A stretch of DNA of 64,000 nt from Malacoraja senta (Eukaryota). Below are positions 3,871-63,159 of this stretch, piece after piece. Each line of letters opens with the position of its first letter. The stretch's first letter is position 1. The position numbers and the translations under genes were made by a program. The stretch lies in the NCBI GenBank assembly GCA_038087875.1, contig CM075993.1, positions 12,092,001 through 12,156,000 on the forward strand, in the 5' to 3' direction. Under the pieces are notes generated by a model. It saw nothing but the letters and a program-made list of their open reading frames with translations, did not search any database and was not told where the DNA came from.

Positions 3871-3920
3871 GAAACACAAAGTTCAGTCAGTACAGACAAA
3901 GAACGATTGTCTGTACTGAC

Positions 3921-5395
3921 TAAACGATTACCGCCCTGTCGCCCTGACCCCAATAATAATCAAGTGTTTTGAACGCCTGGTGAAACCCCACATTACTGCC
4001 AGCCTCCCCTCATCGTTAGACCCCCTCCAGTTTGCCTATCGCTCCAACCGTTCTACAGAGGACGCCATCTCTACCACGCTGCACACAGTGCTCACGCATC
4101 TGGAAAAAAGTAACACATACGCCAGAATCCTGTACATTGACTTCAGCTCTGCGTTCAACACCATCATCCCACAGAGACTTGTGGAGAAACTAACCCTGCT
4201 GGGCCTCAACACCACCCTGTGTCACTGGATCTTGGACTTTCTGACAGAGAGACCGCAGTCAGTCCGTGTGGGCAAGAACACTTCAGGCTCGATCACGCTG
4301 AGCACCGGCTCACCTCAAGGCTGTGTGCTCAGCCCGCTGTTGTTCACATTGCTCACACATGACTGTGCGGCCAGATTCAGGGACAATATGATCATAACAT
4401 TCGCGGATGACACAACAGTGGTGGGACTCATCAGCGGAGATGATGAATCAATGTACAGGGAGGAAGTAAAACAACTAGTGGACTGGTGCGGCAAAAATAA
4501 TCTAGAACTAAATGTGGAAAAAACAAAGGAGATGGTTGTCGACTTCAGGAGGGCGCAGCCAAAGCATGCACCCCTTAACATCAGTGGCGCCACAGTGGAG
4601 AAAGTGGAGAGCATAAAGTTCCTCGGGGTGCAAATTACGGACAGCCTCACCTGGTCCAGAAACACCACTGGGACCGTCAAAAGGGCCCATCAGCGACTGC
4701 ACTTCCTGAGGAAACTAAAACAGGCCTCACTCCCCACCAACATCCTCAGGACTTTCTACAGGGGTACGGCGTACTGTTTAAATACGTGGTACTCAACCTG
4801 CAACTGCTCGGACAGGAAGGCTCTGCAGAGGGTAGTGAGGGGAGCAGAGAAGATCATTGGCATCTCCCTATCCTCGGTACAAGAACTGTTCATGAGCCGC
4901 TGTCGGAAAAAAGCCCAAAAAATTGCCAAGGACAAAATGGAACCCCTCCACATACACCTGGATCTCCTGCCATCAGGCAAGAGATATCGCAGCATCAAAG
5001 CCCGGACTACAAGACTGCTAAACAGCTTCCTGCCATATGCTGTGAGGCTGCTAAACAGCCACTCTGTACTCACAGTCACCTGATTCTGCGGCTTGGCACG
5101 GACACTATAATAACTGGCACTGGCCACTTCAATAACTGGCACTGGCCACTCAAATCAGCCACCCCGGACATGTTTATGATTGGTCTTACTGTATTTTAAC
5201 GTTGTTTGTATCTATTTTAACTTATACTGTTCCATCAGGGACTGGATTGTTTTAGTGTTGTTATTATTATTATTATGTGTGAAATGTTTTAAACGTCATG
5301 TGCGATGCTCCGGTATTCCCTGGGAAATGTCTTTTCGTTTTGCACTGCACAACTGTTGCTTGCAAGATGACAATAAAGGAATTGAATTGAATTGA
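3921..5395 (+). mobile_element. 5'-truncated Rex1/Babar-like non-LTR retrotransposon
   Basis: RT-coding ORF, then AATAAA and a (GAATT)n tail at 5372-5395; Gypsy sequence resumes afterwards. Confidence 0.85.
3980..5083 (+). CDS. Reverse transcriptase (C-terminal part of a Rex1/Babar-like LINE ORF), open for 367 aa
   Basis: [52 protein letters not shown]. Confidence 0.8.
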
Positions 5396-5719: not shown

Positions 5720-7336
5720 CAGTGGCTTGCAAAAGTATTCATACCCCTTGAACTTTTCCACATTTTGTCACGTTACAACCACAAACGTAAATGTATTTTA
5801 TTGAGATTTTATGTGATAGACCAACACAAAGTGGTGCATAATTGTGAAGTGGAAGGGAAATGATACATGGTTTTCAAATTTGTTTACAAATAAAAAACTG
5901 AAAAGTGTCGCGTGCAAAAGTATTCAGCCCCCCTGAGTCAATACTTTGTAGAACCACCTTTCGCTGCAATTACAGCTGCAAGTCTTTTGGTGTATGTCTC
6001 TACCAGCTTTGCACATCTAGAGACTGAAATATTTGCCCATTCTTCCTTGCTAAATAGCTCAAACTCAGTCAGATTGGATGGAGAGCGTCTGTGAACAGCA
6101 ATTTTCAAGTCTTGCCAGAGATTCTCAATTGGATTTAGGTCTGGACTTTGACTGGGCCATTCTAACACATGAATATGCTTTGATCTAAACCATTCCATTG
6201 TAGCTCTGGCTGTATGTTTAGGGTCGTTGTCCTGCTGGAAGGTGAACCTCCGCCCCAGTCTCAAGTCTTTTGCAGACTCTAACAGGTTTTCTTCCAAGAT
6301 TGCCCTGTATTTGGCTCCATCCATCTTCCCATCAACTCTGACCAGCTTCCCTGTCCCTGCTGAAGAAAAGCATCCCCACAGCATGATGCTGCCACCACCA
6401 TATTTCACAGTGGTGATGGTGTGTTCAGGGTGATGTGCAGTGTTAGGTTTCCGCCACACATAGCGTTTTGCATTTAGGCCAAAAACTTCAATTTTGGTCT
6501 CATCTGACCAGAGCACCTTCCTCCACATGTTTGCTGTGTCCCCCACATAGCTTGTGGCAAACTGCAAACGGGACTTCTTATGGCTTTTTTTCAACAATGG
6601 CTTTCTTCTTGCCACTCTTCCATAAAGGCCCGATTTGTGGAGTGCACGACTAATAGTTGTCCTGTGGACAGATTCTCCCACCTGAGCTGTGGATCTCTGC
6701 AGCTCCTCCAGAGTTACCATGGGCCTCTTGGCTGCTTCTCTGATCAATGCTCTCCTTGCCCGGCCTGTCAGTTTAGGTGGACGGCCATGTCTTGGTAAGT
6801 TTGCAGTTGTGCCATACTCTTTCCATTTTCGGATGATGGATTGAACAGTGCCCCGTGAGATGTTCAAAGCTTGGGATATTTTTTTATAACCTAACCCTGC
6901 TTTAAACTTCTCCACAACTTCATCCCTGACCTGTCTGGTGTGTTCCTCGGGCTTCATGATGCTGTTTGTTCACTAATGTCCTCTAACAAACCTCTGAGGC
7001 CTTCACAGAACAGCTGTATTTATACTGAGATTAGATTACACACAAGTGGACTCTATTTACTAATTAGGTGACTTCTGAAGGCAATTGGTTGCACTGGATT
7101 TTATTTAGGGGTATCAGAGTAAAGGGGGCTGAATACCTTTGCACGCGACACTTTTCAGTTTTTTATTTGTAAAAAAATTTGAAAACCATGTATCATTTTC
7201 CTTCCACTTCACAATTATGCGCCACTTTGTGTTGGTCTATCACATAAAATCCCAATAAAATACATTTACGTTTGTGGTTGTAACGTGACAAAATGTGGAA
7301 AAATTCAAGGGGTATGAAAACTTTTGCAAGCCACTG
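5720..7336 (-). mobile_element. Full-length Tc1-family IR/DR DNA transposon, Passport-like, 1617 bp
   Basis: TA at 5718-5719 and 7337-7338; termini CAGTGGCTTGCAAAAG / CTTTTGCAAGCCACTG; ~215-bp inverted repeats with an inner direct repeat TGCAAAAGTATTCA near 5913 and its inverted counterpart near 7130. Confidence 0.97.
5938..6957 (-). CDS. Tc1 transposase, DD34E, uninterrupted 339 aa
   Basis: Paired-like HTH N-terminus, GRPPK, WSDETK, QQDNDPKH, SPDLNPIENLW; I counted 34 residues between the second D and E. Confidence 0.95.
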   Translation of the reverse strand: MKPEEHTRQVRDEVVEKFKAGLGYKKISQALNISRGTVQSIIRKWKEYGTTANLPRHGRPPKLTGRARRALIREAAKRPMVTLEELQRSTAQVGESVHRTTISRALHKSGLYGRVARRKPLLKKSHKKSRLQFATSYVGDTANMWRKVLWSDETKIEVFGLNAKRYVWRKPNTAHHPEHTITTVKYGGGSIMLWGCFSSAGTGKLVRVDGKMDGAKYRAILEENLLESAKDLRLGRRFTFQQDNDPKHTARATMEWFRSKHIHVLEWPSQSPDLNPIENLWQDLKIAVHRRSPSNLTEFELFSKEEWANISVSRCAKLVETYTKRLAAVIAAKGGSTKY

Positions 7337-14682: not shown

Positions 14683-15739
14683 TCAAGTCAAGTCAAGTGA
14701 GTTTATTGTCATGTGTCCCTTATAGGACAATGAAATTCTTGCTTTGCTTCAGCACAAAGAACATAGTAGGCATTTACTACAAAACAGATAAGTGTCCATA
14801 TACCATAATATAAATATATACACATATGAATAAATAAAGTGATAAAGTGCAGATAACAGATAATGGGTTATTAATAATCAGAGTTTTGTCCGAGCCAGGT
14901 TTAATAGCCTGATGGCTGTGGGGAAGTAGCTATTCCTGAACCTGGTTGTTGCAGTCTTCAGGCTCCTGTACCTTCTACCTGAAGGTAGCAGGGAGATGAG
15001 TGTGTGGCCAGGATGGTGTGGGTCTTTGATGATACTGCCAGCCTTTTTGAGGCAGCGACTGCGATAAATCCCCTCGATGGAAGAAATGTCAGAGCCGATG
15101 ATGGACTGGGCAGTGTTTACTACTTTTTGTAGTCTTTTCCTCTCCAGGGCGCTCAAGTTGCCGAACCAAGCCACGATGCAACCGGTCAGCATGCTCTCTA
15201 CTGTGCACCTGTAGAAGTTAGAGAGAGTCCTCCTTGACAAACCGTCTCTCCGTAATCTTCTCAGGAAGTAGAGGCGCTGATGAGCTTTCTTGATAATTGC
15301 ATTAGTGTTCTCGGACCAGGAAAGATCTTCAGAGATGTGCACCCCCAGGAATTTGAAGCTCTTGACCCTTTCAACCATCGACCCGTTGATATAAACGGGA
15401 CTGTGGGTCCCCATCCTACTCCTTCCAAAGTCCACAATCAGTTCCTTGGTTTTGCTGGTGTTGAGGGCCAGGTTATTGTGCTGGCACCATATGGACAGTT
15501 GCTCGATCTCTCTTCTATACTCTGACTCATTCCCATCAGTGATACGTCCCACCAGAGTGGTGTCGTCAGCAAACTTGATGATGGAGTTCGCATTGTGACC
15601 GGCTACGCAGTCATGAGTATAGAGTGAGTACAGCAGGGGGCTGAGCATGCAGCCTTGAGGTGCTCCCATGCTGATTGTTATCGAGGCTTACACATTTCCA
15701 CCAATACGAACAGACTGTGGTCTGTGAATGAGGAAGTCG
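14683..15739 (-). mobile_element. 5'-truncated Rex1/Babar-like LINE inserted in the DIRS element (RT ORF 14878-15669)
   Basis: GAPQGCMLSPLLY, KFADD, KFLGV, LLPSGRRYRS; AATAAA and a (TTGAC)n tail. Confidence 0.87.
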
Positions 15740-26890: not shown

Positions 26891-28877
26891 CCCAGATAAT
26901 ACTGTACATGAATACAATTAAGTCAGACTCATTTACAATAGGAAGAGCAAAGGGAAATATACAGAGTGCAGCATATAGTTCTCAGCATTATAATGCAACA
27001 GTTCCATAGACAAAGTCCAATGTCCGCAATGGGGTAGAGGTAATAATAATAATAATAAATGTTATTTATGGGCGCCTTTCAAAAGTCTCAAGGACACCTT
27101 ACAAAGTTTAACAAATAGTGTAGAAACATGTAAGCGGAATGAAATAAATAGCAAAGACATCACCAGTACACAAATTAAAGATAGAATTAAATCCAAAATT
27201 AAATCCGCAGTTCACCCAAAAGTCAGGCCTATTGAGGCCTCCACAGTTGCCTCTATGGAGGCCCGATGTTTCTGGCCGTTTTCACTGGGTGCAGTTGCCC
27301 CGGCGTCGGGAGAGTCCTCACGGCGGCTGGGACGGCTGGAACGGCCAATTCCCTACCGGAGTCCGAGGCACCTGAAGCCGACAAGGCCGCGCCGATTTGG
27401 AGCTCCGAGGCTCCCGATGTTAGGGTCGGCGCCACCGCCCACGGCTGGTCGCTCCGCAGTCCCGCAGCCCGGAGGTGTTGAGCTCGGTGGTCGCAGCTCA
27501 CTGGAGCTCCACCGCGTCGATCCAGCTCGGCGACCCAGGCAAGGTATCGCCCGCTCCGCTCCGCGATGGCGTTCCAGCGCTGTGCCGCCACCGAAGCTGA
27601 AGGTGCTGGGCAGTCCCCGCCAGGAAACGCCGCTCCACGCCTGCTGGTAGGCCGCAAGGACGGGTCAGCCCGGAGAAAAAGCTGCCTCACCGACCAGGTA
27701 GGGTCAGAACTGGACCTAGGGTTGAGATTTTTGATTGGAGAAAGGCTAACTTTGAGGAGATGCGAAAGGATTTAAAAGGAGTAAATTGGGACAGTTTGTT
27801 TTATGGGAAAGATGTGGAAGAGAAATGGAGGACATTTAAAAGTGAAATTTTAAGAGTACAGAATCTTTATGTCCCTGTTTGTTTGAAAGGAATTAGTAAA
27901 AAATGGAAAGAGCCATGGTTTGCATGGGAAATTGGACACTTAGTTCGGAAAAAGAGAGAGATCTACAATAATTATAGGCAGCATGGAGTAAATGAGGTGC
28001 TTGAGGAGTATAAAAAATGTAAAAAGAGTCTTAAGAAAGAAATTAGAAAAGCTAAAAGAAGATATGAGGTTGCTTTGGCAAATAAGGTGAAAGTAAATCC
28101 AAAGGGTTTCTACAGCTATATTAATAGCAAAAGGATAACGAGGGATAAAATTGGTCCATTAGAGAGTCAGAGTGGACAGGTATCTGCAGAGCCAAAAGAG
28201 ATGGGGGAGATATTGAACAATTTCTTTTCTTCGGTATTCACCAAGGAGAAGGATATTGAATTATGTGAGGTAAGGGAAACAAGTAGAGTAGCTATGGAAA
28301 CTATGAGATTCAAAGAAGAGGAAGTACTGACACTTTTGAGAAATATAAAAGTGGATAAGTCTCCAGGTCCGGACAGGATATTCCCTAGGACATTGAGGGA
28401 AGTTAGTGTAGAAATAGCAGGGACTATGAGAGAAATATTTCAAATGTCATTGGAAACGGCAATAGTGCCGGAGGATTGGCGTACTGCGCATGTTGTTCCA
28501 TTGTTTAAAAAGGGTTCTAAGAGTAAACCTAGCAATTATAGACCTGTTAGTTTGACGTCAGTGGTGGGCAAATTAATGGAAAGGATACTTAGAGATAATA
28601 TATATAAGCATCTGGATAAACAGGGGCTGATTAGGAACAGTCAACATGGATTTGTGCCTGGAAGGTCATGTTTGACTAATCTTCTTGAATTTTTTGAAGA
28701 GGTTACTCGGGAAATTGATGAGGGTAAAGCCGTGGATGTTGTATATATGGACTTCAGTAAGGCCTTTGACAAGGTTCCTCACGGAAGGTTGGTTAAGAAG
28801 GTTCAATGGTTGGGTATTAATGGTGGAGTAGCAAGATGGATTCAACAGTGGCTGAATGGGAGATGCCAGAGAGTAAT

Positions 28878-31800
28878 TGTAAAGGATTGATAACGAGGCA
28901 TCGTTACTTTACTATCTTTATTCATACTAGACATTATGCATTGCACTAGCTGTACGTGGTCTGTCACAGGAACTAGAGGGCGATCTGTGGGTGTGGAGGT
29001 TGTAGTTATACTTGTGATATGGGGAGTGGTTAGTGGGTATGAGGTCACTATGTTAAAGGCACATGCATATCTCATCTACATCCTTCCCCTCCGAAACGAC
29101 AGGTAAATACAAAGGTGACATGGAGACCACGGCTCATGCGCTAGGATAGCTAGGCAACATCGCCATAGCGGTCAGGCGGTTTGACAAGACGTCCCGCCCG
29201 GGTTCGCGTCTCGCCATCCACCCTTCCTGCAGGAGGAAGAGGCACCAGCGAGGACAGACGAACCTGAAAGGGAGAAACGGGAGGAAACGGAAGAGACCGC
29301 GGCACCGAAACCGGAGGGGATGCGGGGCCGGGACCGGGAAGAGCGCGTGGGGGCGAGCGAGCACTAAGCGGAGTGTGGCGGAGCGGAGGGGGCGAAGGAG
29401 GAGCAGAGCGAGGCATGTCAGGAATCACGGGCAGGGCAACGGCCGGACGCGAAACAGGCAGCGGGGGAGCAAAGGGATCGGCGGCAGGAGGACGCGGCTC
29501 GTGGACGAGCCGAAGGTGCTGGCGGGACCGTCGGTAAATGGTCCCAGCGTAGTCGACGAAATAGGACCTGGGCGACCCCGCAGAGCCGACGACAGTAGCG
29601 AGCTTGGAGTGACCGGGAGTGGTCTGCATACGGACTACTTGACCGGAGAAGAGGGGCGGCAGCGGGTGGCAGGACCTGTCATGGGACCGCTTTTGGACGT
29701 CTTGCCTGAAGGCAATTCGTTTCTGAACCGCCGCAGGTGGAAGGACCGAGGGTATGAGGGATCGCTGGGCCACCGGGAGTGGGAGCCTGGTAGCGCGAGA
29801 CAGGAGCCGCTGAGCAGGTGAACCCATGGCAGGGTCGCGGGAAATATTTCGAAGGCTGAGGAGGGCCAGGTGGAAGTCGGAGTTAATGCCACCACACTGT
29901 TCCAACAGGTGCTTAGCACTGCGTACCGCGCGCTCGGCCAAACCGTTGCTTTGCGGGTACTCCGGGCTGCTGGTGAAATGGCGAAAGTTCCATCTGGAAG
30001 CGAACGCTTTAAACTCGGAGCTCGTGAACTGGCTGCCATTGTCCGACTGCAAGCTTGCCGGGGGGCCAAAAGTGCTAAAGTGAGGGTCTAACCTGTCGAT
30101 GACGGCCGAAGAGGTCACGGAAGGCAGCCGGTCAACCGCAAACCAGCTGGAGTAGAAGTCAACGAGTACCAGGAAATGTTTGCCCCGCCACTCGAAAATG
30201 TCTGTGGCGAGCGCCATCCAGGGCAGTCCGGGCGCGGGCTGCTGTAGAAGCGGCTGACGCTGCTGATGGGGGGCGCGGCTGTTGCAGGTGGAACACGAAG
30301 AGACCCTCTCCCGGATGTACTTTGCCATATCCGGCCAATAGAACTGTGCCTTGGCGAGAGACAAAGTGGCTTCGGCCCCAGTGTGACCGCGGTGTGCGAC
30401 CTGAAAATAGTGGTCGTGCAGCGCCGCGGACACCAGTCCCATTTCCTGGCATGCCTGGATCCCCAGCAGGGGAACGCAACTTCGATTGAGGAGAAAGAAG
30501 GTGAGGGGCCGAGTGGCCTTCAGTATCTTACAGTGTAGTGTGGCCTTGCCCACAGGAGTAAGGATCTCCCCACCGTAGGCATGCAGGTTTGAGCTCTGAG
30601 AAAATATCTTCTCATTAGTCCTTATCTGGTTGAAAAGAGATGTTGACATAACATTGGTAACCGCCCCAGTGTCGATTTTGGCCGTGAAGGTCGCGTTGTT
30701 CACAGTGACTTGCACAGAAGGATCCGTTATCATAGCAGGTGCGTTCACCACGGTAAACAAGCTGGTTTCCCCCTGAGAGGAGTTAGATGTAGGAACAGAA
30801 TGTTCATCGGAATAGTGCTGGGAGCTGAGATCATTATCCGACTGTAGAAGGTTGTTTAAATTTTGCCTTCGAGCAGCGACAGGCTTCCCACGGGAACGAC
30901 AAGCTGCAGCAAAATGGTTCAACTTATTACAGGAGTTGCAGTTCTTTCCCAGCGCAGGGCAGACATTGAACTGATGAGTTGTGAAGTTGCAATTAGGGCA
31001 CCTTTGCTGGGTGTCTCCCCTTGTTGCACCACCGAACCCCGGGGCGCGTCCCCCTCGAGCAGCGAGCGACACCGGGGGTCGCGACTGGGGTGCGTTCATG
31101 AGATAGCTAGGAGTGTTGGCGAAGTTGATCGCCTGTTCAGCCGGCGGCGCCGCCGCGGAAACAGCGTCGGCTAAGCGAGTAGCGTGCATTGCATCGGCCA
31201 AGGTCAGATCCGGCTTGCGAAGCAGTTCGGACCTGAGCTTCTCATCACGGAGACCGTAAACCAGTAGGTCCCTGATGACATTATCGGGGGTCCACGTCTC
31301 GAGGCGGCAGCGCCTGCCCAGGTCCCGCAGCGCAATGACATAGTTCTCAGCAGATTCCCCCGGGAGCTGACGCCGCGCGAACAGTTTAAAACGTTCTAAA
31401 ATGCAATTAGTAGGAATGTCACAAATAGCGTCAAACTTAGCCAACAGACATGCCGGGTCCCGAGCTGATTCTCCAGGAGCGTAGACGAAGAAGTCCGAGC
31501 GAGTCAAGGCGTTGGGACCAGCCAAGTTGAGAAGCAGTGAGGCTTTGAGAGCGTCGGTGGCGCCAGGATGGGCAATCGTGAAAAAGTGTTTAAAGTCGCG
31601 TTTGAATATGTCCCATCGAAGGGCGATGTCGAAATCGAAAACGAGCGCATCGGGCTTACGGGCAGAAGAGGCCATAACAAAAACAGTTAGGGGGGGAAAC
31701 AAAAAACTGGGTCAAAATTAAATGATAAACCGATAAACGGGAGGCGCAAGGTAAGTTATTTGACACCATGTAAAGGATTGATAACGAGGCATCGTTACTT

Positions 31801-31969
31801 TACTATCTTTTCATACTGGACATTATGCATTGCACTAGCTGTACGTGGTCTGTCACAGGAACTAGAGGGCGATCTGTGGGTGTGGAGGTTGTAGTTATAC
31901 TTGTGATATGGGGAGTGGTTAGTGGGTATGAGGTCACTATGTTAAAGGCACATGCATATCTCATCTACA
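28878..31969 (-). mobile_element. Young non-autonomous Gypsy (Mag-like) LTR retrotransposon lacking RT/RNase H, 3092 bp
   Basis: TG...CA LTRs 28878-29080 and 31769-31969, differing by eye by one substitution and one 2-bp indel; 5-bp TSD GTAAT (28873-28877, 31970-31974); PBS-like TGGTGTCA next to the 5' LTR; PPT GGAGGGGAAGGA (29081-29092). Confidence 0.96.
29150..31702 (-). CDS. Gag-protease-integrase polyprotein, 850 aa, no RT/RNase H
   Basis: Gag (F..R.Q..GES, IRD.LV.GL.D), Cys/His knuckles CPNCNFTTHQFNVC and CNSCNKLNHFAAAC, protease IDTGA...LLG, then directly integrase H-RG-H...CSTC, LATDIF, QSDNG, GLAER (35 residues counted between D and E), Pro-rich tail and TRAGR..KPP.RY. Confidence 0.92.
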   Translation of the reverse strand: MFPPLTVFVMASSARKPDALVFDFDIALRWDIFKRDFKHFFTIAHPGATDALKASLLLNLAGPNALTRSDFFVYAPGESARDPACLLAKFDAICDIPTNCILERFKLFARRQLPGESAENYVIALRDLGRRCRLETWTPDNVIRDLLVYGLRDEKLRSELLRKPDLTLADAMHATRLADAVSAAAPPAEQAINFANTPSYLMNAPQSRPPVSLAARGGRAPGFGGATRGDTQQRCPNCNFTTHQFNVCPALGKNCNSCNKLNHFAAACRSRGKPVAARRQNLNNLLQSDNDLSSQHYSDEHSVPTSNSSQGETSLFTVVNAPAMITDPSVQVTVNNATFTAKIDTGAVTNVMSTSLFNQIRTNEKIFSQSSNLHAYGGEILTPVGKATLHCKILKATRPLTFFLLNRSCVPLLGIQACQEMGLVSAALHDHYFQVAHRGHTGAEATLSLAKAQFYWPDMAKYIRERVSSCSTCNSRAPHQQRQPLLQQPAPGLPWMALATDIFEWRGKHFLVLVDFYSSWFAVDRLPSVTSSAVIDRLDPHFSTFGPPASLQSDNGSQFTSSEFKAFASRWNFRHFTSSPEYPQSNGLAERAVRSAKHLLEQCGGINSDFHLALLSLRNISRDPAMGSPAQRLLSRATRLPLPVAQRSLIPSVLPPAAVQKRIAFRQDVQKRSHDRSCHPLPPLFSGQVVRMQTTPGHSKLATVVGSAGSPRSYFVDYAGTIYRRSRQHLRLVHEPRPPAADPFAPPLPVSRPAVALPVIPDMPRSAPPSPPPLRHTPLSARSPPRALPGPGPASPPVSVPRSLPFPPVSPFQVRLSSLVPLPPAGRVDGETRTRAGRLVKPPDRYGDVA

Positions 31970-34900
31970 GTAATGGTGGATGGTTGTTTGTCAGGTTGGA
32001 GGCCAGTGACTAGTGGGGTGCCACAGGGATCTGTGTTGGGTCCACTGTTGTTTGTCATGTACATCAATGAACTGGATGATGGTGTGGTAAATTGGATTAG
32101 TAAGTATGCAGATGATACTAAGATAGGTGGGGCTGTGGATAATGAAGTAGATTTTCAAAGTCTACAGAGAGATTTATGCCGGTTGGAAGAGTGGGCTGAA
32201 AGATGGCAGATGGAGTTTAATGCTGATAAGTGTGAGGTGCTACATCTTGGCAGGACAAATCAAAATAGGACGTACATGGTAAATGGTGGGGAATTGAAGA
32301 ATGCAGGTGAACAGAGGGATCTTGGAATAACTGTGCACAGTTCCCTGAAAGTGGAATCTCATGTAGATAGGGTGGTAAAGAAAGCTTTTGGTGTGCTGGC
32401 TTTTATAAATCAGAGCATTGAGTATAGAAGTTGGGATGTAATGTTAAAATTGTACAAGGCATTGGTGAGGCCAATTCTGGAGTATGGTGTACAATTTTGG
32501 TCGCCTAATTATAGGAAGGATGTCAACAAAATAGAGAGAGTACAGAGGAGATTTACTAGAATGTTGCCTGGGTTTCAACAACTAAGTTACAGAGAAAGGT
32601 TGAACAAGTTAGGTCTTTATTCTTTGGAGCGCAGAAGGTTAAGGGGGGACTTGATAGAGGTCTTTAAAATGATGAGAAGGATAGACAGAGTTGACGTGGA
32701 TAAGCTTTTCCAATTGAGAGTAGGGAAGATTCAAACAAGGGGACATGACTTGAGAATTAAGGGACAGAAGTTTAGGGGTAACATGAGGGGGAACTTCTTT
32801 ACTTAGAGAGTGGTGGCTGTGTGGAATGAGCTTCCAGTGAAGGTGGTGGAGGCCGGTTCGTTTTTATCATTTAAAAATAAATTGGATAGTTATATGGACG
32901 GGAAAGGAATGGAGGGTTATGGTCTGAGCACAGGTATATGGGACTAGGGGAGAATACGTGTTCGGCACGGACTAGAAGGGTCGAGATGGCCTGTTTCCGT
33001 GCTGTAATTGTGATATGGTTATATGGTTATAGAAGTAGTTTCCCTCTAACCCCCCCACATTAAAAGTCAAAACTCCACCAACAGACAAAGACATAAAAAA
33101 ATTAAAAACTAAGAAAAAAGTGAATTTAACGGACGGCTGCTGGTTAGCAGTCGTTTACAGCTGGTAAGCAGCCGTTCCCCAAGATGGCTCCTCCTCCCAA
33201 GAGGTGAATCTGACAGTGCCCTAGCTTATGGAAGGATCGTTCAGAAACCTGATAACAAAGGGGAAGAGGCTATTCAATTTCACTCTGAGCAAGTCCTGCA
33301 ATGCATTTGTGGCTTTCCTGCTCAGAAGAATGTGTCCTTTGGTGAACATGATGCCTCTCACAGAGGTTGGGAGAAGGAAGGGCAGAGGGATGGTTTGTGA
33401 ACAGACTGAGGAAAGCAGAGATTAATGGAGAAAAAAGTCATTCTCGATAACGAGGGAGTGAGAAGAAGATGGAAGCGTATATCCAATAGGTCCAAGGAGG
33501 ACAGAGTTTATCACTAAGTAAACTCAAGTTCAAGTTCAGATTTATTGTCACATGTACCAATTGTAACATCTAGTGTTAAATTATACTCCCTCTTTAATGA
33601 TTACAAGATATGTTGCTCGGTTTGCAGGGACATGCCTTGAAGCACAGTCCCTGTTGATGGCAAACAGCACCTGCCACGAGCCATAACTATTAAGAGGGAG
33701 TTAGATGTGGCCCTTGTGGCTAAGGGGATCAGGGGGTATGGAGAGAAGGCCGGTACGGGATACTGAGTTGGATGATCAGCCATGATCATATTGAATGGCG
33801 GTGCAGGCTCGAAGGGCCGAATGGCCTACTCCTGCACCTATTTTCTATGTATCTATGTATATCTATAGAACATACAGGAGCTGCTCCCAATCTACTCATC
33901 CAAGCTCCCGCTGAATACCTTTTGTCATTTGCCTTTCTACAATTAAACACATTTCCCCTGAGGTCCACTCGTATCCTTATCCATAACTATCTGAAAACTC
34001 AGGCTGGCACTTATGCAGCTAGTACTCACAGCAGCAGAAACCTGGGTTCCATCCTGATCTCCTGAAAGAAGTGGGGGGGGGGGTGAAATGCTGGAAGCGA
34101 GAAAAGAGCCTGGATGGTACTTTCTCACCTCCCCCCACACACCCCTACTTTCAGTCTGAAGAAGGGTCCTGACCTGAAACGTCACCCATCCTTTTTCTGC
34201 ATAGATGTTCCTGACCCGCTGAGTTACTCCAGCTCTTTGTGTCTATTTCCTGTACTGTTCTATGTTCTATAATAAGAATCTTTACGAGGGAGGTATATCT
34301 AGAACAGGAGGGCGTAAATTTAAGGTGAGCGGGGAGACTTGTTGGGTAAACGTTTCACATGAGTGATGGTTATTTGGATTGAGCTGCCACAGTTCAGTTC
34401 AATTTCACTTTAGTTTATTGTCACGTGTACCGAGGTACAGTGAAAGGCTTTTGTTGCATGCTAACCCGTCGGCAGAAAGACAATACATGGTTTCAATCAA
34501 GCCGTTTACAGTATGTACATACATGATAAGGGAATAACGTTTAGTGCAAGGTAAAGCCAGCAAAGTCCGATCAAAGATAGTCCGAGGGTCACCAAAGAGG
34601 TAGATAGTAGTTCAGCACTGCTCTCTGGTTGTGGTAGGATGGTTCAGTTGCCTGATGACAGTTGGGAAGAAACTGTCCCTGAATCTGGAGGTGTGCGTTT
34701 TCACACTTCTGTATCTTTTCCCCGATGGGAGAGGGGAGAAGAGTGGAAGCGGTGGAGGTAGATGTAGTTAACATGTTTGAATGACATCCTCTGCTTCCTT
34801 CCATCAAGCCAATTCTCTAACCAGTTGGCTATTTCTCCCTGGATCCCATACATCTAACCTTCCAGAGGACCCTACCATGTGGAACCTTATCAAAGGCCTT

Positions 34901-35849: not shown

Positions 35850-38800
35850 AACCATATAATAACCATATAGCAATTACAGCACAGAAACAGGCCATCTCGA
35901 CCCTTCTAGTCCATGCCGAACACGTATTCTCCCCTAGTCCCATATACCTGCGCTCAGACCATAACCCTCCATTCCTTTCCCGTCCATATAACTATCCAAT
36001 TTATTTTTAAATGATAAAAACGAACCTGCCTCCACCACCTTCACTGGAAGCTCATTCCACACAGCCACCACTCTCTGAGTAAAGAAGTTCCCCCTCATGT
36101 TACCCCTAAACTTCTGTCCCTTAATTCTCAAGTCATGTCCCCTTGTTTGAATCTTCCCTACTCTCAGTGGGAAAAGCTTATCCACGTCAACTCTGTCTAT
36201 CCCTCTCATCATTTTAAAGACCTCTATCAAGTCCCCCCTTACCCTTCTGCGCTCCAAAGAATAAAGCCCTAACTTGTTCAACCTTTCTCTGTCACTTAGT
36301 TGTTGAAACCCAGGCAACATTCTAGTAAATCTCTGTACTCTCTCTATTTTGTTGACATCCTTCCTATAATTAGGCGACCAAAATTGTACACCATACTCCA
36401 GAATTGGCCTCACCAATGCCTTGTACAATTTTAACATTACATCCCAACTTCTATACTCAATGCTCTGATTTATAAAAGCCAGCACACCAAAAGCTTTCTT
36501 TACCACCCTATCTACATGAGATTCCACTTTCAGGGAACTGTGCACAGTTATTCAAAGATCCCTCTGTTCACCTGCATTCTTCAATTCCCTACCATTTACC
36601 ATGTACGTCCTATTTTGATTTGTCCTGCCAAGATGTAGCACCTCACACTTATCAGCATTAAACTCCATCTGCCATCTTTCAGCCCACACTTCCAACCGGC
36701 ATAAATCTCTCTGTAGACTTTGAAAATCTACTTCATTATCCACAGCCCCACCTATCTTAGTATCATCTGCATACTTACTAATCCAATTTACCACACCATC
36801 ATCCAGATCATTGATGTACATGACAAACAACAGTGGACCCAACACAGATCCCTGTGGCACCCCACTAGTCACTGGCCTGCAACCTGACAAACAACCATCC
36901 ACCATTACTATCTGGCAACTCCCATTCAGCCACTGTTGAATCCATCTTGCTACTCCACCATTAATACCCAACCATTGAACCTTCTTAACCAACCTTCCGT
37001 GAGGAACCTTGTCAAAGGCCTTACTGAACATCCACGGCTTTACCCTCATCAATTTCCCGAGTAACCTCTTCAAAAAATTCAAGAAGATTAGTCAAACATG
37101 ACCTTCCAGGCACAAATCCATGTTGACTGTTCCTAATCAGCCCCTGTTTATCCAGATGCTTATATATATTATCTCTAAGTATCCTTTCCATTAATTTGCC
37201 CACCACTGACTTCAAACTAACAGGTCTATAATTGCTAGGTTTACTCTTAGACCCCTTTTTAAACAATGGAACAACATGCGCAGTACGCCAATCCTCCGGC
37301 ACTATTGCCGTTTCCAATGACATTTGAAATATTTCTGTCATAGCCCCTGCTATTTCTACACTAACTTCCCTCAATGTCCTAGGGAATATCCTATCCGGAC
37401 CTGGAGACTTATCCACTTTTATATTTCTCAAAAGTGTCAGTACTTCCTCTTCTTTGAATCTCATAGTTTCCATAGCTACTCTACTTGTTTCCCTTACCTC
37501 ACATAATTCAATATCCTTCTCCTTGGTGAATACCGAACAAAAGAAATTGTTCAATATCTCCCCCATCTCTTTTGGCTCTGCAGATACCTGTCCACTCTGA
37601 CTCTCTAATGGATCAATTTTATCCCTCGTTATCCTTTTGCTATTAATATAGCTGTAGAAACCCTTTGGATTTACTTTCACCTTACTTGCCAAAGCAACCT
37701 CATATCTTCTTTTAGCTTTTCTAATTTCTTTCTTAAGACTCTTTTTACATTTTTTATACTCCTCAAGCACCTCATTTACTCCATGCTGCCTATAATTATT
37801 GTAGATCTCTCTCTTTTTCCGAACTAAGTGTCCAATTTCCCTTGAAAACCATGGCTCTTTCCAATTTTTACTATTTCCTTTCAACCGAACAGGGACATAA
37901 AGATTCTGTACTCTTAAAATTTCACCTTTAAATGTCCTCCATTTCTCTTCCACATCTTTCCCATAAAACAAACTGTCCCAATTTACTCCTTTTAAATCCT
38001 TTCGCATCTCCTCAAAGTTAGCCTTTCTCCAATCAAAAATCTCAACGCTAGGTCCAGTTCTGACCCTCTCCATAATTATATTGAAACTAATGGTATTGTG
38101 ATCACTGGTCCCGAACTGTTCCCCAACGCATACCTCTGCCACCTGACCCGTCTCATTTCCTAACAGGAGGTCCAGCAGGTAGGTACTTCTCTAGTAGGTA
38201 CTTCTATGTATTGCTGCAAAAAACTATCCTGCACACATTTTACAAACTCCAACCCATCCAGCCCATTTACAGAATGTGTTTCCCAGTCTATGTGTGGAAA
38301 ATTGAAATCTCCCACAATCACTACCTTGTGCTTACTACTAATATCTGCAATCTCCTTACATATTTGCTCTTCCAATTCTCGCTCCCCATTTGGCGGTCTA
38401 TAATACACCCCTATGAGTGTTGCTACCCCTTTCCCATTTCTCAGTTCCACCCAAATAGCCTCCCTAGAAGAGCCCTCTAATCTATCCTGCCAAAGCACTG
38501 CTGTAATATCTTCCCTGATAAGCAATGCAACACCTCCACCTCTTGCCCCTCCAATTCTATCACACCTGAAGCAACGAAATCCTGGATTATTTAGTTTCCA
38601 ATGACAGCCCTCCTGCAACCATGTTTCACTGATCGCCACAACATCATACTTCCAGGTGTCAATCCAGGCTTTAAGTTCATCCACCTTTCTTACAATGCTC
38701 CTAGCATTAAAATATACAAATTTAAGAAACCCACCCTCTCTTATTCTCCGTTTATTGTCTTTTTCTTCTCTCTCCCCTACATTTTGGGTCAGAGTGCTTC

Positions 38801-38987
38801 CATTCTCTGCCTCCTGCCTCACACACTGACTGCTAGCTTTCACAATTTGAGTCCCTCCCCCCAACCATACTAGTTTAAAGTCTCCCCAGTAGCCTTTGCA
38901 AATCTACCCGCCAGGATATTGGTCCCCCTCGAGTTCAAGTGCAACCCATCCTTTCTGTACAGGTCGCACCTTCCCCAAAAGAGGTCC
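35850..38987 (-). mobile_element. CR1 LINE (end of ORF1 esterase and near-complete frameshifted ORF2 APE-RT) inserted in the ERV 3' LTR
   Basis: ORF1 tail RKDGLHLNSRGTNIL (SGNH block V-like); APE motifs YFNARSI, ISETWL, GGGVAL, YYRPP, VGDFN, SDH; RT YADD; (ATATGGTT)n tail; possible TSD CATTT. Confidence 0.95.
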
Positions 38988-43304: not shown

Positions 43305-44910
43305 CATAGAAACATAGAAACATAGAAAATAGGTGCAGGAGAAGGCCATTCGGCCCTTCGAGCCTGCACCGCCATTCAATATGATCATGGCTGATCATCC
43401 AACTCAGTATCCTGTACCTGTCTTCTCTCCATACCCCCTGATCCCTTTAGCCACAAGGGCCACATCTAACTCCCTCTTAAATATAGCCAATGAACTGGCC
43501 TCAACTACATTCTGTGGCAGAGAATTCCACAGATTCACCACTCTCTGTGTGAAAAATGATTTTCTCATCTCGGTCCTAAAAGACTTCCCCCTTATCCTTA
43601 AACTGTGACCCCTTGTTCTGGACTTCCCCAACATCGGGAACAATCTTCCTGTCCAACCCCTTAAGAATCTTGTAAGTTTCTATAAGATCCCCCCTCAATC
43701 TTCTAAATTCTAACGACAAGCCGAGTCTATCCAGTCTTTCTTCATATGAAAGTCCTGCCATCCCAGGAATCAGTCTGGTGAACCTTCTCTGTACTCCCTC
43801 TATGGCAAGAATGTCTTTCCTCAGGTTTGGTGACCAAAACTGTACGCAATACTCCAGGTGTGGCCTCACCAAGACCCTGTACAACTGCAGTAGAACCTCC
43901 CTGCTCTTATACTCAAATCCTTTTGCTATGAATTCTAACATACCATTCGCTTTCTTCACTGCCTGCTGCACCTGCATGCCTACTTTCAATGACTGGTGTA
44001 CCATGACACCCAGATCTCGTTGCATCTCCCCTTTTCCTAATCGGCCACCATTCAGATAATAGTCTACTTTCCTGTTTTTACCACCAAAGTGGATAACCTC
44101 ACATTTATCCACATTATACTGCATCTGCCATGCATTTGCCCACTCACCCAACCTATCCAAGTCACCTTGCAGCCTCCTAGCATCCTCCTCACAGCTAACA
44201 CTGCCCCCCAGCTTCGTGTCATCTGCAAACTTGGAGATGTTGCATTCAATTCCCTCATCCAGATCATTAATATATATTGTAAATAGCTGGGGTCCCAGCA
44301 CTGAGCCTTGCGGTACCCCACTAGTCACTGCCTGCCATTCTGAAAAGGACCCGTTTACTCCTACTCTTTGCTTCCTGTCTGCCAGCCAGTTCTCTATCCA
44401 CATCAATACTGAACCCCCAATACCGTGTGCTTTAAGTTTGCATACTAATCTCTTATGTGGGACCTTGTCGAAAGCCTTCTGAAAGTCCAGATATAACACA
44501 TCCACTGGTTCTCCCTTATCCACTCTACTAGTTACATCCTCGAAAAATTCTATAAGATTCCTCAGACATGATTTACCTTTCATAAATCCATGCTGACTTT
44601 GTCCAATGATTTCACCACTTTCCAAATGTGCTGCTATCCCATCTTTAATAACTGACTCTAGCATTTTCCCCACTACCGATGTTAGACTAACTGGTCTGTA
44701 ATTCCCCGTTTTCTCTCTCCCTCACTTTTTAAAAAGTGGGGTTACATTAGCTACTCTCCAATCCTCAGGAACTACTCCAGAATCTAAAGAGTTCTGATAA
44801 ATTATCACAAATGCATCCACTATTTCCGAGGCTATTTCCTTAAGTACTCTGGGATGCAGCCTGTCTGGCCCTGGGGATTTATCGGCCTTTAATCCATTCA
44901 ATTTACATAA
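43305..44910 (-). mobile_element. 5'-truncated CR1 LINE in the ERV leader (RT ORF 43576-44673)
   Basis: [35 protein letters not shown]; (TTTCTATG)n tail. Confidence 0.93.
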
Positions 44911-51898: not shown

Positions 51899-54800
51899 GC
51901 CTCACAAACACAACATCCCCAGGCATTATTCCAGAGTGCCTGGTTCCTCGTTTCAAGTATTTTACAAGTTTACTGTCCCCCTAACTATGCAAGGTTTTAA
52001 AGAAGCCTTTTTAATGAATATATTACCACAATCCGTTTATGAAGCATCTATTTCTTTAGGGGGTGCTGTCCTGTACGGCTGCCAGTCCTGCAGCTGTCCG
52101 TTTTTTTTCACCATCACCCGGCGAGAGGGCTGAAACATCAGGCCTCCGTAGCGGCGACTGTGGAGGCCTCAATAGGCCCGGTCATGGGTGGACAAGAGGA
52201 TGGGGACTGGACTTTGTGCCTTTCCCCACAATGGGAACCATTGGTGGGGGGATGTTTTATGTTTTAATGTTAAACTTCTTCTTTAATGCTATGTTGTATT
52301 TTTATGAGTGTGCTGCAAGGACATCTGAATTTCCCCTGAGTAAGGGGATTAATAAAGTATTTATTATTAATTCTTAAAAAAGATAAAGACCCTACTGAAG
52401 TGACATCATATAGACCTATATCACTGTTAAATGTAGACTCCAAAATTCTTTCAAAAATATTACCTATGAGATTGGAAAATATTTTACCACAAATTATTTC
52501 TGAAGATCAGACAGGTTTTTATTAAAAATCCTTACTCATACTTTAATGTTCGGAGACTAATGAATATTGTATATACAGCGTCAAATAAAATTCCAGAATG
52601 TGTCATTTCACTTGATGCTGAGAAGGTATTTGATAGCGTAGAATGGAAATACTTATTCAATACACTTGAAAAATTTAAGATGGTCCAAAATTTATCTCTT
52701 GGATCAAGCTGATATATCATATACCTCAAGCTTCTGTAAGTACCAATAATCAGAGATCCCCTTTTTTCAGGCTCTTCGAGGTACCAGGCAGGGCTGTCCT
52801 TCAAGTCCTTTATTGTTCGATATCGCTTTGGAACCTCTGGCCACCGCTATTAGGGAATCCCCTAATATTTTTGGTATTGTCCGTTGAGAATAAGACACAT
52901 AAGCTATCACTTTATGCAGATGATCTGTTATTATTTATCTCTAATCCGGAAAAATCTATTCCTGCAATAGTAGCACTACTTAATCAATTTAGTCGTTTTT
53001 CTGGTTATAAACTAAATCTTAGTAAGAGTGAGCTTTTTCCATTAAACAATCAAATCTCGAATTATGGACAGTTTCCATTTAGATTGACTACTGACTGTTT
53101 TACTTATTTAGGCATTAAGATTACCAAGAAACACAAGGATCTATTTTAAGCCAATTTTATGCCCCTAATTGACCACATCAGACAACAGTTTACTAAATGG
53201 TCACCAATGTCCTTATCTCTAATTGGCCGAATCAATGCTATTAAAAAGTTTATCTTACCTAAATTTTTGTATTTATTTCAGACGATACCAATTTTTATTG
53301 CTAAATCTTTCTTTGATATTATTGACTCAAAAATTTCTTCATGTTTATGGCAGAATAAAAATACCAGACTAAGTAAAAAAATACTTAGAGAAATCAAAAA
53401 AAAGATGGTGGTTTGGCACTGCCGAACCTTAGATTTTACTGTTGGGCAGTTAATGCTCGCTATTTATCGTTTTGGACAAAAGATTTAGAAGATACCCAAT
53501 GCCCAGTATAGATAAATCTTGAACGTGATTCTATGCAAGGGCTATCATTGGCTTCTATTCTAGGGGCCTCGTTACCCTTTACAATTACGAGATTGAATAA
53601 ATATATGATTAACCCAATAATAAGACACACATTCCGAATATGGTTTCAATTTCGTACGTTTTTTGGATTGAATGATTTTATCTTATCGCGTCCTATCATA
53701 TCTAATTTTTTCTTCCAACCATCTAGTATAGATCAAGCCTTTCTGTTATGGAAGAGGAAGGGATTAGCAGTTTTTCATGACTTGTTTTTGGACGGTTGTT
53801 TTATGTCTTTTGAACAACTCTCCAATAAATATAATCTACCTAACTCACATTTCTTTAGATATATACAAATTAGACATTTTTAAGGCTACTCTACTGTCTT
53901 TCCGTTACCACATCAAACCGAAATCTTGGAATTTTTAAACATTTGAACCCTTATCAGAAAGTTTTAATAACGACTATTTATGAGCTGATTTTGAAATTAC
54001 AAATAGATACATTGGATAAAATTAAGAATGACTGGGAAAGAGAACTTCAAATTTCTCTACCTATAGAGAAATGGGAGAGGATTCTTCAATTAGTTAATAC
54101 TTCCTCAATGTGTGCAACACACGCTCTGATACAATTCAAGGTGGTTCACAGAGCTCATATGTCAAAAGATAAGTTAGCTCGTTTTTATGGTCATATAAAT
54201 CCTACCTGTGACAGATGTAACTCTGAAGTGGCCTCACTGACTCACATGTTTTGGTCTTGCCCAAATTTGGAAAAGTATTGGAAAGACATTTGTGACACTA
54301 TTTCTGTAGTCTTAGGTATTGATTTACAACCTCATCCTATTACTGCAATTTTTGGGCTACCAATGTTAGATTCTACTTATCTGTCCCGTTCTGCCCATCG
54401 GCTGATTGCTTTTACTATATTAATTGCCAGAAGATCTATTTATTTAAATGGAAAGACTCTAATCCTACTACCACACTTCATTGGTACTTTGAAACAATAT
54501 CATTTTTAAATTTAGAAAAAATTAGGAGTGACTTTGTCGAACCCTTGGTTAAATTTGATAGGACTTGGGGAACATTTTCACACGATATAAATTGTTCCCT
54601 CCCCAACCGTTATAATAATTCTTTTACCTTTATATGGTGGAACGGACTTGACAACAAACAAGGACTTAAATTGTTGAAATTCTTTGTAGGCCAGATTTTG
54701 TTTTTGATTTTTTTAGTTATGGGGATTTTGTTTTTCTCTTTTTTTTCTCTTTAAAAAAAAAAATTAAAATCTTTTTGTTTTTATATATATACAAGTTCTC

Positions 54801-57256: not shown

Positions 57257-57456
57257 NNNNNNNNNNNNNNNNNNNNNNNNNNNNNNNNNNNNNNNNNNNN
57301 NNNNNNNNNNNNNNNNNNNNNNNNNNNNNNNNNNNNNNNNNNNNNNNNNNNNNNNNNNNNNNNNNNNNNNNNNNNNNNNNNNNNNNNNNNNNNNNNNNNN
57401 NNNNNNNNNNNNNNNNNNNNNNNNNNNNNNNNNNNNNNNNNNNNNNNNNNNNNNNN
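57257..57456. other. Assembly gap (200 N)
   Basis: Run of exactly 200 N; contiguity across it is unverified. Confidence 0.99.
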
Positions 57457-61532: not shown

Positions 61533-63159
61533 CAGTGCCCTCCATAATGTTTGGGACAAAGACCCATCATTTATTTATTTGCCTCTGTGCTCCACAATTT
61601 GAGATTTGTAATAGAAAAAATCACGTGTGGTTAAAGTGCACATTGGTCAGATTTTAATAAAGGCCATTTTTATACATTTTGGTTTCACCATGTAGAAATT
61701 ACAGCTGTGTTTATACATTGTCCCCCCCATTTCAGGGCACCATAATGTTTGGGACACAGCAGTATCATGTAAATGAAAGTAGTCTTGTTTTGTATTTTGT
61801 TGCATGTCCTTGAAGTCTGCAATTCATGGACATCACCAGTTGCTGGGTGTCTTCTCTGGTGATGATCTGCCAGGCCTGTATTGCAGCCATCTTTAGCTTA
61901 TGCTTGTTTTGGGGGCTAGTCCCCTTCAGTTTTCTCTTCAGCATATAAAAGGCATGCTCAATTGGGTTCAGATCGAGTGATTGACTTGGCCACTAAAGAA
62001 TTGACTATTTTTTAGCTTTGAAAAACCCCTTTGTTGCTTTAGCAGTATGTTTGGGATAATTGTCTTGCTGTAGAATGAACCGTCGGCCAATGAGTTTTGA
62101 GGCATTTGTTTGAACTTGAGCAGATAGGAGGTGTCTATACACTTCAGAATTCATTATGCTACTACCATCAGCAGTTGTATCATCAATGAAGATAAGTGAG
62201 CCAGTACCTTCAGCAGCCATACATGCCCAGGCCATAACACCTCCACCACCGTGTTTCACAGATGAGGTGGTATGCTTTGGATCTTGGGCAGTTCCTTCTC
62301 TCCTCCATATTTTGCTCTTGCCATCACTCTGATATAAGTTAATCTTCGTCTCATCTGTCCACAAGACCTTTTTCCAGAACTGTGGTTGCTCTTTTAAGTA
62401 CTTCTTGGCAAACTGTAACCTGGCCATCCTATTTTTGCAGCTAACCAGTGGTTTGCATCTTGCAGTGTATCCTCTGTATTTCTGTTCATGAAGTCTTCTG
62501 CAGACAATGGTCATTGACAAATCCACTCTTGACTCCTGAAGAATGTTTCTGATCTGTCGGACAGGTGTTTGGGGATTTTTCTTTATTATAGAGAGAATTC
62601 TTCTGTCATCAGCTGTGGAGGTCTTCCTTGGCCTGCCAGTCCCTTTGTGATTAGTAAGCTCACCAGTGCTCTCTTTCTTCTTAATGATGTTCCAAAGTTG
62701 ATTTTGGTAAACCTAAAGTTTGGTTGATGTCTCCAACAGTTGTATTCTTGTTTCTCAGTCTCATAATGGCTTTTTTGACTTTCATTGGCACAACTTTGGT
62801 CCTCATGTTGATAAACAGCAATAAAAGTTTCCAAAGGTGATGGAAAGACTGGAAGAAAGACTAGGTGCTGAGAGCTCCCTTATATCTGTATTAAGGAGGC
62901 AATTAAACACACCTGAGCAATTACAAACACCTGTGAAGCATTTGTGTCCCAAACATTATGGTGCCCTGAAATGGGGGGGGACTATGTATAAACACAGCTG
63001 TAATTTCTACATGGTGAAACCAAAATATATAAAAATGGCCTTTAATAAAATCTGACAATGTGCACTTTAACCACATATGATTTTTTCTATTACAAATCTC
63101 AAATTGTGGAGTACAGAGGCAAATAAATAAATGAGGGTCTTTGTCCCAAACATTATGGA
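61533..63159 (-). mobile_element. Decayed Tc1-family IR/DR transposon (different family from 5720-7336)
   Basis: TA plus CAGTGCCCTCCATAATGTTTGGGACAAAGACC left terminus; ~225-bp TIRs; right TIR lacks its last 8 bp; frameshifted transposase with WTDETK, VKHGGG, QQDN, DLNPIE. Confidence 0.92.

What the first reader, a model, noticed from the sequence alone, without database searches (positions are those of the whole stretch)
28878..31969. Young LTR retroelement encoding an intact Gag-protease-integrase polyprotein with RT/RNase H cleanly removed in frame
Seen: one 850-aa ORF in which the protease end (LLGIQACQEMGLVS) runs directly into the integrase zinc-finger lead-in (AALHDHYFQVAHRGH) at ~30430. 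Protease DTG, integrase HHCC and DD35E, PBS, PPT, 5-bp TSD and near-identical ~200-bp LTRs are all retained; the interior is CpG-rich with little decay. Known: Gypsy order is PR-RT-RH-IN, and non-autonomous LTR elements usually lose all coding capacity or keep only gag. Inference: a semi-autonomous family that supplies its own capsid, protease and integrase and borrows only RT, or one half of a complementing pair. A deletion landing on both domain boundaries and in frame is suggestive, but one copy cannot exclude chance.
Basis: partly seen in the sequence, partly recalled or inferred. Interest (0 to 1): 0.75.

Follow-up and report, generated by a model that had tools for sequence, protein, structure and literature searches.

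The report
Internally deleted Gypsy retrotransposon copy
This jumping-gene copy, probably from a skate, has lost its copying enzyme in one deletion that kept the reading frame but also clipped the protease end and a whole integrase domain, so it is most likely an ordinary defective member of an abundant family.

Summary
The anatomy is real: 201/203-bp LTRs, GTAAT target duplication, PBS, PPT and one 841-aa Gag-protease-integrase frame without RT/RNase H. Against a full-length skate relative 550 residues are missing. The cut is not an RT/RH-only excision. It falls 5 residues before the putative protease/RT cleavage motif and 89 residues after the RNase H end. [quoted passage not shown] The break does land on the NED/zinc-finger boundary, where HIV integrase begins. 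Public contigs show an abundant family whose listed contigs continue into the missing parts at both break points, with a 6-nt in-frame overlap, i.e. microhomology. No listed contig bridges the junction, but the listing is heavily truncated. Open frames are cheap here: the host LINE is also open. Verdict: a defective, internally deleted Gypsy copy (about 0.75). A mobilised IAP-1Δ1-like deletion subfamily is not excluded (about 0.15). No genome was held, so copy number is untested. The scan reported similar deleted LTR copies in fungal genomes before.

The parts
31970..31974 (.). target-site duplication GTAAT (5' side of element)
31769..31969 (-). 5' LTR, 201 bp, TG..CA
31761..31768 (-). primer-binding site beginning TGG directly after the 5' LTR; tRNA not identified by a call (tRNA-Leu type is recalled)
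29150..31675 (-). single ORF, 841 aa: Gag - protease - (deletion) - integrase zinc finger, core, C-terminal domain, Pro-rich tail
30899..31000 (-). two Cys/His clusters at the end of Gag (residues 226-259)
30428..30724 (-). aspartic protease, DTG at residue 335; ends 5 residues before the putative PR/RT cleavage motif of relatives
30428..30433 (-). deletion junction; 6-nt stretch covered both by contigs that run on into the PR-RT linker and by a contig that runs on into the integrase N-terminal extension (microhomology, same frame); about 1650 nt absent
30269..30427 (-). integrase HHCC zinc-binding domain, starting at the NED/NTD boundary; Pfam model positions 4-58 of 59 (1-55 and 1-58 in undeleted relatives)
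29933..30202 (-). integrase catalytic core D492, D545, E581
29081..29092 (-). polypurine tract
28878..29080 (-). 3' LTR, 203 bp
28873..28877 (.). target-site duplication GTAAT (3' side of element)
27601..28877 (+). host LINE RT frame, part upstream of the insertion (CR1/L2-type assignment is from recall)
31975..32806 (+). host LINE RT frame, part downstream of the insertion; the two parts give 703 codons without an internal stop

Best explanation
A defective copy of an abundant single-ORF Ty3/Gypsy retrotransposon family of skates or rays. One internal deletion of about 1650 nt joined two short similar sequences that lie in the same codon frame, at the end of the protease and at the start of the integrase zinc finger. 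It arose by a template jump during reverse transcription or by microhomology-mediated repair after insertion (inferred; the two cannot be separated). The copy was integrated by the family's normal machinery (TSD and LTR ends shown). The frame is still open because few mutations have accumulated, not because of selection. If translated, it would give Gag plus a protease tied to a NED-less integrase without the usual cleavage sites (inferred). Any further movement would need RT, and probably integrase, from full-length copies.
For: 550 residues are missing against the full-length 1387-aa little-skate protein P0293. 165 of 196 relatives with both protease-side and integrase-side matches have 500-599 residues between them, and none of 269 shows this junction; loose ends at 30428 in run X2 (3 contigs) and X3 (1 contig, 255 letters) and at 30433 in X3 (1 contig, 183 letters). 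Read by eye they continue as the skate proteins P0034 and P0020 do, so undeleted copies exist and the two sides overlap by 6 nt. In X3 both contigs at the junction are the undeleted form. The left break is 5 residues before the putative cleavage motif and the right break 89 after the RH end. The lost stretch holds a confidently folded domain (pLDDT 94-98 over residues 231-290 of relative P0003) that aligns to the N-terminus of Ty3 integrase (Z 25.4, rmsd 4.8, 360 aligned, model 222-597 to chain 17-436) and PFV integrase (Z 24.7, rmsd 3.1, 336 aligned), with residues at least 90% conserved among 116 relatives. In-frame is not rare: 39-46% of 5-8-nt repeats between the Gag-PR and IN parts are in frame. 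The chance of staying open after the roughly 6 substitutions expected from LTR divergence is 0.85, and the host LINE is open over 703 codons. Listed differences from the family majority in Gag-PR are 3 silent and 9 replacement, as neutral. Six other internal skips appear in X1 contigs (weak rows).
Against: The copy number of the junction was not measured: one search lists only 28 piece rows (12775 not shown) and 18 of 402 loose ends, and no junction loose end is listed for X1. The right break coincides exactly with the NED/NTD boundary (HIV-1 IN residue 1 aligns to model residue 287, the first retained position), and a review says the PFV NED has no role in in-vitro activity though essential for complexing viral DNA (PMC3738965, passage). 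All catalytic and zinc residues are kept. Listed differences in the integrase part are 11 silent to 9 replacement (omega about 0.3, p 0.009), though these may predate the deletion. Four LTR letters shared by both LTRs differ from the majority in X1/X2, so the copy comes from a distinct sub-lineage.
Confidence: 0.75

Rival explanations
1. A trans-mobilised deletion subfamily like mouse IAP 1Δ1: the deleted RNA is repeatedly packaged and copied by full-length partners, and translating the in-frame fusion (mainly its Gag) helps in cis, whether or not the protease and integrase parts work.
For: All cis signals are kept; the frame is open; partners with matching LTR and interior are abundant; both LTRs share letters that differ from the family majority. 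Precedent: the IAP 1Δ1 in-frame gag-pol fusion acts in cis (PMC6466679 and PMC7411935, passages).
Against: No second copy seen in 28 listed pieces, in 269 proteins or in the Gag-PR search (4 hits, best 63%); X3 shows only the undeleted form; Gag-PR differences look neutral, 3 silent to 9 replacement.
Confidence: 0.15
2. One reading: a selected semi-autonomous family whose own protease and NED-less, HIV-like three-domain integrase are functional and which borrows only RT.
For: The break is exactly at the NED/NTD boundary; DTG, HHCC and D,D35E are intact; silent excess in the integrase part; NED and NTD of the outer PFV subunits can be deleted with little effect in vitro (PMC6333793, passages).
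Against: The putative PR/RT and RH/IN cleavage regions are both lost, so integrase would stay fused to protease; extra N-terminal residues lower HIV IN activity (PMC7457537, abstract passage); the Ty3 NED stabilises LTR binding (10.1101/2021.07.27.453949, section 5); microhomology accounts for the break point.
Confidence: 0.06
3. Assembly error: the RT-RH segment was dropped.
For: No listed contig bridges the junction; the family is highly repeated.
Against: The two LTRs are resolved with distinct letters; the overlap is only 6 nt, too short for a repeat collapse (inference); no N lies near it, the only gap being 57257-57456; the missing part is not elsewhere in the window.
Confidence: 0.04

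Closest known systems
Skate and fish single-ORF Ty3/Gypsy polyproteins annotated 'K02A2.6-like' (Leucoraja erinacea XP_055487754.1 = P0293; XP_055491307.1, XP_055506313.1, XP_055487307.1)
   Same: Gag, protease and integrase 45-77% identical; the window integrase groups with the skate-type proteins at support 1.0
   Different: 550 residues (linker, RT, RNase H, NED) are absent here
Mag-lineage Gypsy elements (PMC3286476, Table 1 and passages)
   Same: LTRs of about 200 bp, mostly 5-bp TSD, often one ORF, 4.5-5 kb when whole (this one would be about 4.7 kb)
   Different: clade membership was not tested against named references; this copy lacks RT, the usual marker
Mouse IAP 1Δ1 (PMC6466679, PMC7411935, passages)
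   Same: internal deletion giving an in-frame fusion ORF between intact LTRs; needs proteins in trans
   Different: 1Δ1 is a proven multi-copy mobile subfamily of an ERV and its deletion removes part of gag and pol; here one copy is known, Gag is whole and RT/RH/NED are lost
Plant semi-autonomous LTR families RLG_Sabrina_SA, RLG_Quinta, pol-less Athila (PMC9744471, PMC11302176, PMC2410132, passages)
   Same: keep Gag (and protease in Sabrina_SA), lack RT
   Different: they lack integrase, number hundreds to thousands of copies, and Athila ORFs show purifying selection; none of that is shown here
Ty3 and prototype foamy virus integrases (PDB 7q5b, 3oyi)
   Same: the undeleted relative has the same four-domain NED-NTD-CCD-CTD layout
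   Different: the window protein starts at the NTD, as HIV, RSV and MMTV integrases do, and is fused to protease

Membership tests
Ty3/Gypsy LTR retrotransposon | TG..CA LTRs, TSD, PBS, PPT | tested here: met
Ty3/Gypsy LTR retrotransposon | Gypsy-type protease and integrase, integrase last; closest relatives have the order PR-RT-RH-IN | tested here: met
Autonomous Gypsy element | encodes RT and RNase H | tested here: not met
   550 residues absent
Mag lineage | RT/RH/IN phylogeny with named Mag references | not testable with these tools
   no named references held; the tree has only database proteins
Mag lineage | short LTRs, 5-bp TSD, single ORF, PBS for tRNA-Leu or -Ser | tested here: inconclusive
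   LTR, TSD and ORF fit PMC3286476 Table 1; the PBS tRNA was not identified by a call
Semi-/non-autonomous deletion family (IAP 1Δ1, Sabrina_SA type) | same deletion at several loci with different TSDs | tested here: inconclusive
   no genome held; no bridging piece among 28 listed, 12775 not shown; 0 exact matches in collections unlikely to hold the host
Semi-/non-autonomous deletion family (IAP 1Δ1, Sabrina_SA type) | autonomous partner sharing LTR and PBS region | tested here: met
   contigs at least 85% alike over LTR, PBS join and interior, with undeleted continuations at both break points
Semi-/non-autonomous deletion family (IAP 1Δ1, Sabrina_SA type) | purifying selection on the retained ORF after the deletion | tested here: inconclusive
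   32 ORF rows among 40 shown of 164; Gag-PR 3 silent/9 replacement, IN 11/9; cannot be dated relative to the deletion
   NED and both linker regions lost (cleavage sites are inferred from motifs and a disordered linker)
   no RNA holder listed

The most novel reading that the evidence does not exclude
The junction marks a mobile deletion subfamily in which a Ty3-type four-domain integrase was trimmed to an HIV-like three-domain enzyme fused to protease, kept under selection and complemented only for RT by full-length partners: a natural division of labour in Pol, and a natural test of whether the NED is needed.
Probability: 0.07. Interest if true: 0.7.

Novelty: new member of a known kind. 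Interest (0 to 1): 0.22.

Why it matters
As a one-off defective copy it matters little: internal deletion is a common fate of LTR elements. It does point to an abundant skate or ray Gypsy family (sequence-identical stretches at roughly a hundred times background contig depth) that I did not find described in the searches run. If the junction proved multi-copy and selected, it would be an RT-only-dependent retrotransposon with a naturally NED-less, protease-fused integrase. My three searches of the open-access library (listings only) turned up no such family. It would make the role of the NED and of integrase release from the polyprotein testable in a natural system.

Tried and rejected
No own genome was held, so the copy count, LTR census and dN/dS among copies were not run. 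The junction 27-mer had 0 matches in JGI metagenomes and IMG/VR. Protein-guided scans found no relative: 9 stretches in viral contigs and 68 in metagenome contigs, none confirmed. These collections are unlikely to hold the host, so this is uninformative. The short-protein search across the junction gave 0 of 45 candidates. The exact ORF is not in the protein collection. No RNA holder was listed: no evidence on expression either way. Single-sequence folding of the fusion failed (pLDDT 33.9) and was not used. Bin depths around the junction (table 2) vary twofold between neighbours and say nothing on bridging. Splicing was rejected as the origin: read by eye from the loose ends, the removed part does not end in AG at any cut within the overlap. 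Ginger-type DNA transposon was rejected: LTRs, Gag, protease, PBS and PPT are present. Of 27 of 269 relatives without an RT hit, 7 have both Gag/PR-side and IN-side matches. The ones mapped (P0153/P0286, P0163, P0215, P0232 cluster, P0240/P0284, plus P0084) break elsewhere, and several are spliced gene models. Four other zero-gap rows (P0111, P0125, P0130, P0167) have RT hits and were taken as over-extended alignments; P0139 and P0168 were not examined further. Earlier-findings look-ups by sequence and place were empty. Supplementary files of papers were not read.

Full report
1. Observation. The element occupies 28878-31969 on the minus strand. Its LTRs (201 and 203 bp, TG..CA) differ by one substitution and one 2-nt indel; GTAAT is duplicated on both sides; a TGG-type PBS and a 12-nt PPT abut the LTRs; interior CpG o/e is 0.96 against 0.50 for the window. 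It sits inside a LINE RT frame that reads open over 703 codons once the insertion is discounted. One ORF of 841 aa (ATG 31675, stop 29150) carries Gag Cys/His clusters, DTG at 335, HHCC and D492/D545/E581. Pfam finds integrase and weak protease matches but no RT or RNase H, and the missing part is not elsewhere in the window.

2. Relatives. The nearest named proteins are Leucoraja erinacea gene models (61-75% identity) and an Amblyraja radiata model, then teleost Gypsy polyproteins at about 50%. The host is therefore inferred to be a skate or ray; no genome was held. Against the full-length 1387-aa skate protein P0293 exactly 550 residues are missing (the same figure from P0290). Of 269 relatives, 196 match on both sides of the junction and 165 of these have 500-599 residues in between; none shows this junction.

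3. Where the cut falls. On the left, close relatives continue with a hydrophobic residue and, 5 residues on, a V/I-H-x-V/L-type motif like the one at the Gag/protease border. I infer this is the PR/RT cleavage site; it is lost here. The motif was found within 12 residues in 63 of 142 relatives aligned to the protease end, and in most of the closest. On the right, the break is 89 residues after the RNase H end. An AlphaFold model of the undeleted close relative P0003 (68-sequence alignment, mean pLDDT 85.5) shows a disordered linker at 209-218 and then a confidently folded helix and beta-hairpin domain before the zinc finger. Structure alignment maps model residues 222-597 to Ty3 integrase 17-436 (Z 25.4, rmsd 4.8, 360 aligned) and 234-597 to PFV integrase 8-375 (Z 24.7, rmsd 3.1, 336 aligned), whereas HIV-1 integrase residue 1 aligns to model residue 287, the equivalent of the first residue kept after the junction. 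So the lost part is the N-terminal extension domain. For Ty3 the NED is described as stabilising LTR binding (10.1101/2021.07.27.453949, section 5 read). For PFV a review calls it without role in vitro but essential for complexing viral DNA (PMC3738965, passage), and it is dispensable in the outer subunits (PMC6333793, passages). The result cuts both ways: the integrase is not intact for its family, yet the break is clean at the NED/NTD boundary.

4. Public contigs (stretch 28720-31768, 85% likeness, 4 of the 8 runs listed). X1 and X2 lay 7021 and 5734 contigs, X3 11 and X5 4. One Gag stretch identical to the window has depth 11500 in X1 (the other seven listed X1 pieces 34-96) and 737 in X2 (five listed pieces 5-9, two 62 and 179). 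This suggests, roughly, a family of order a hundred copies; the tool warns that depth is no copy number. Three of 18 listed loose-end rows (384 not shown) lie at the junction: X2 and X3 at 30428 and X3 at 30433. Read by eye they continue as the skate proteins P0034 (into the PR-RT linker) and P0020 (into the NED) do. Undeleted copies thus exist, and the two sides share positions 30428-30433 in the same codon frame, a microhomology of 6 nt (5 or 6 letters identical; the contig letters inside the overlap are not printed). None of 28 listed piece rows bridges the junction, but 12775 are not shown and no junction loose end is listed for X1, so further deleted copies are not excluded. Whether any run is the window's species is unknown.

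5. Chance and selection. 39-46% of 5-8-nt repeats between the Gag-PR and IN parts of this ORF are in frame. LTR divergence predicts about 6 substitutions in the ORF since insertion (0.2-35), leaving it open with probability 0.85 (0.38 at 35). At 7e-10 per generation (PMC10587355, passages; a shark rate, borrowed) one LTR substitution is about 3.6 million generations (0.09-20 million), so 'young' is loose. Among 32 ORF rows of the 40 shown of 164 differences, Gag-PR has 3 silent and 9 replacement (neutral), IN 11 and 9 (omega about 0.3, p 0.009). The IN excess may be old sub-lineage divergence or a sign of a chimeric template jump; it cannot be dated against the deletion. Four LTR letters shared by both LTRs differ from the X1/X2 majority, so the parent belonged to a distinct sub-lineage, deleted or not. 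A break this tidy is individually improbable, but it was picked out of very many windows for being tidy (inference), and the scan noted three comparable deleted copies in fungal genomes (unchecked AI notes).

6. Mechanism. Shown: integration with TSD, loss of 550 residues, overlap at the break, existence of undeleted relatives. Inferred: a microhomology-guided jump during reverse transcription or repair; a product of Gag plus an uncleavable protease-integrase fusion; dependence on full-length copies for any further movement. Odds: one-off or passive defective copy 0.75; IAP-1Δ1-like mobile subfamily 0.15; selected family with working PR and IN 0.06; assembly error 0.04.

7. Comparison with the known. 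In-frame internal deletions in mobile non-autonomous elements are known (IAP 1Δ1; PMC6466679 and PMC7411935, passages), as are Gag or Gag-protease semi-autonomous families (PMC9744471, PMC11302176, PMC2410132, passages). I found no described RT-less Gag-PR-IN family in three searches of the open-access library (listings only; subscription papers and Repbase are not covered). Structural features fit the Mag lineage (PMC3286476, Table 1; PMC3601003, passages), but membership was not tested. PMC7457537 was seen as passages; PMC3407527 as abstract only and not relied on.

8. Verdict. This is a new member of a known kind, an internally deleted Gypsy copy; interest 0.22. The bold reading (a selected, mobile, NED-less protease-integrase fusion family) has probability about 0.07 and would deserve 0.7. 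One BLAST of the junction against the source assembly would largely decide it.

Noticed in passing
window 757-3036 (+): A second, decayed Gypsy element of a distant lineage with PR, RT, RH and IN remnants, stops and frameshifts; 27-42% identical to the relatives used, so not the partner of the deleted copy.
   Followed up: partly
window 5938-6969 (-) and 62005-62712 (-): Tc1/Sleeping-Beauty-type transposase frames; the first is open over 343 codons with HTH and DDE matches.
   Followed up: no
window 3920-5083 (+), 14878-15687 (-), 37021-38903 (-), 43576-44721 (-), 53874-54509 (+): Several LINE RT or endonuclease frames; the window is mostly transposon DNA and no host gene was recognised among the 14 other window frames scanned.
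   Followed up: no
proteins P0232, P0287-P0289 (Logan) and P0286 (ENA; cluster with a Corticium candelabrum gene model): Other RT-less Gag-PR-IN frames with different break points that keep the protease linker and the integrase N-terminal region. They are better candidates for a semi-autonomous design than this copy, but copy numbers are unknown and the four Logan proteins are 99.8-100% identical, possibly one locus.
   Followed up: partly
window 28878-29080, rows: Run X1 holds contigs joining the PBS/LTR start of related LTR families to this family's interior (table 5c) and six further internal skips (table 5); single contigs with short sides, weak.
   Followed up: no
window 57257-57456: A 200-N scaffold gap, the only one in the window.
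   Followed up: no
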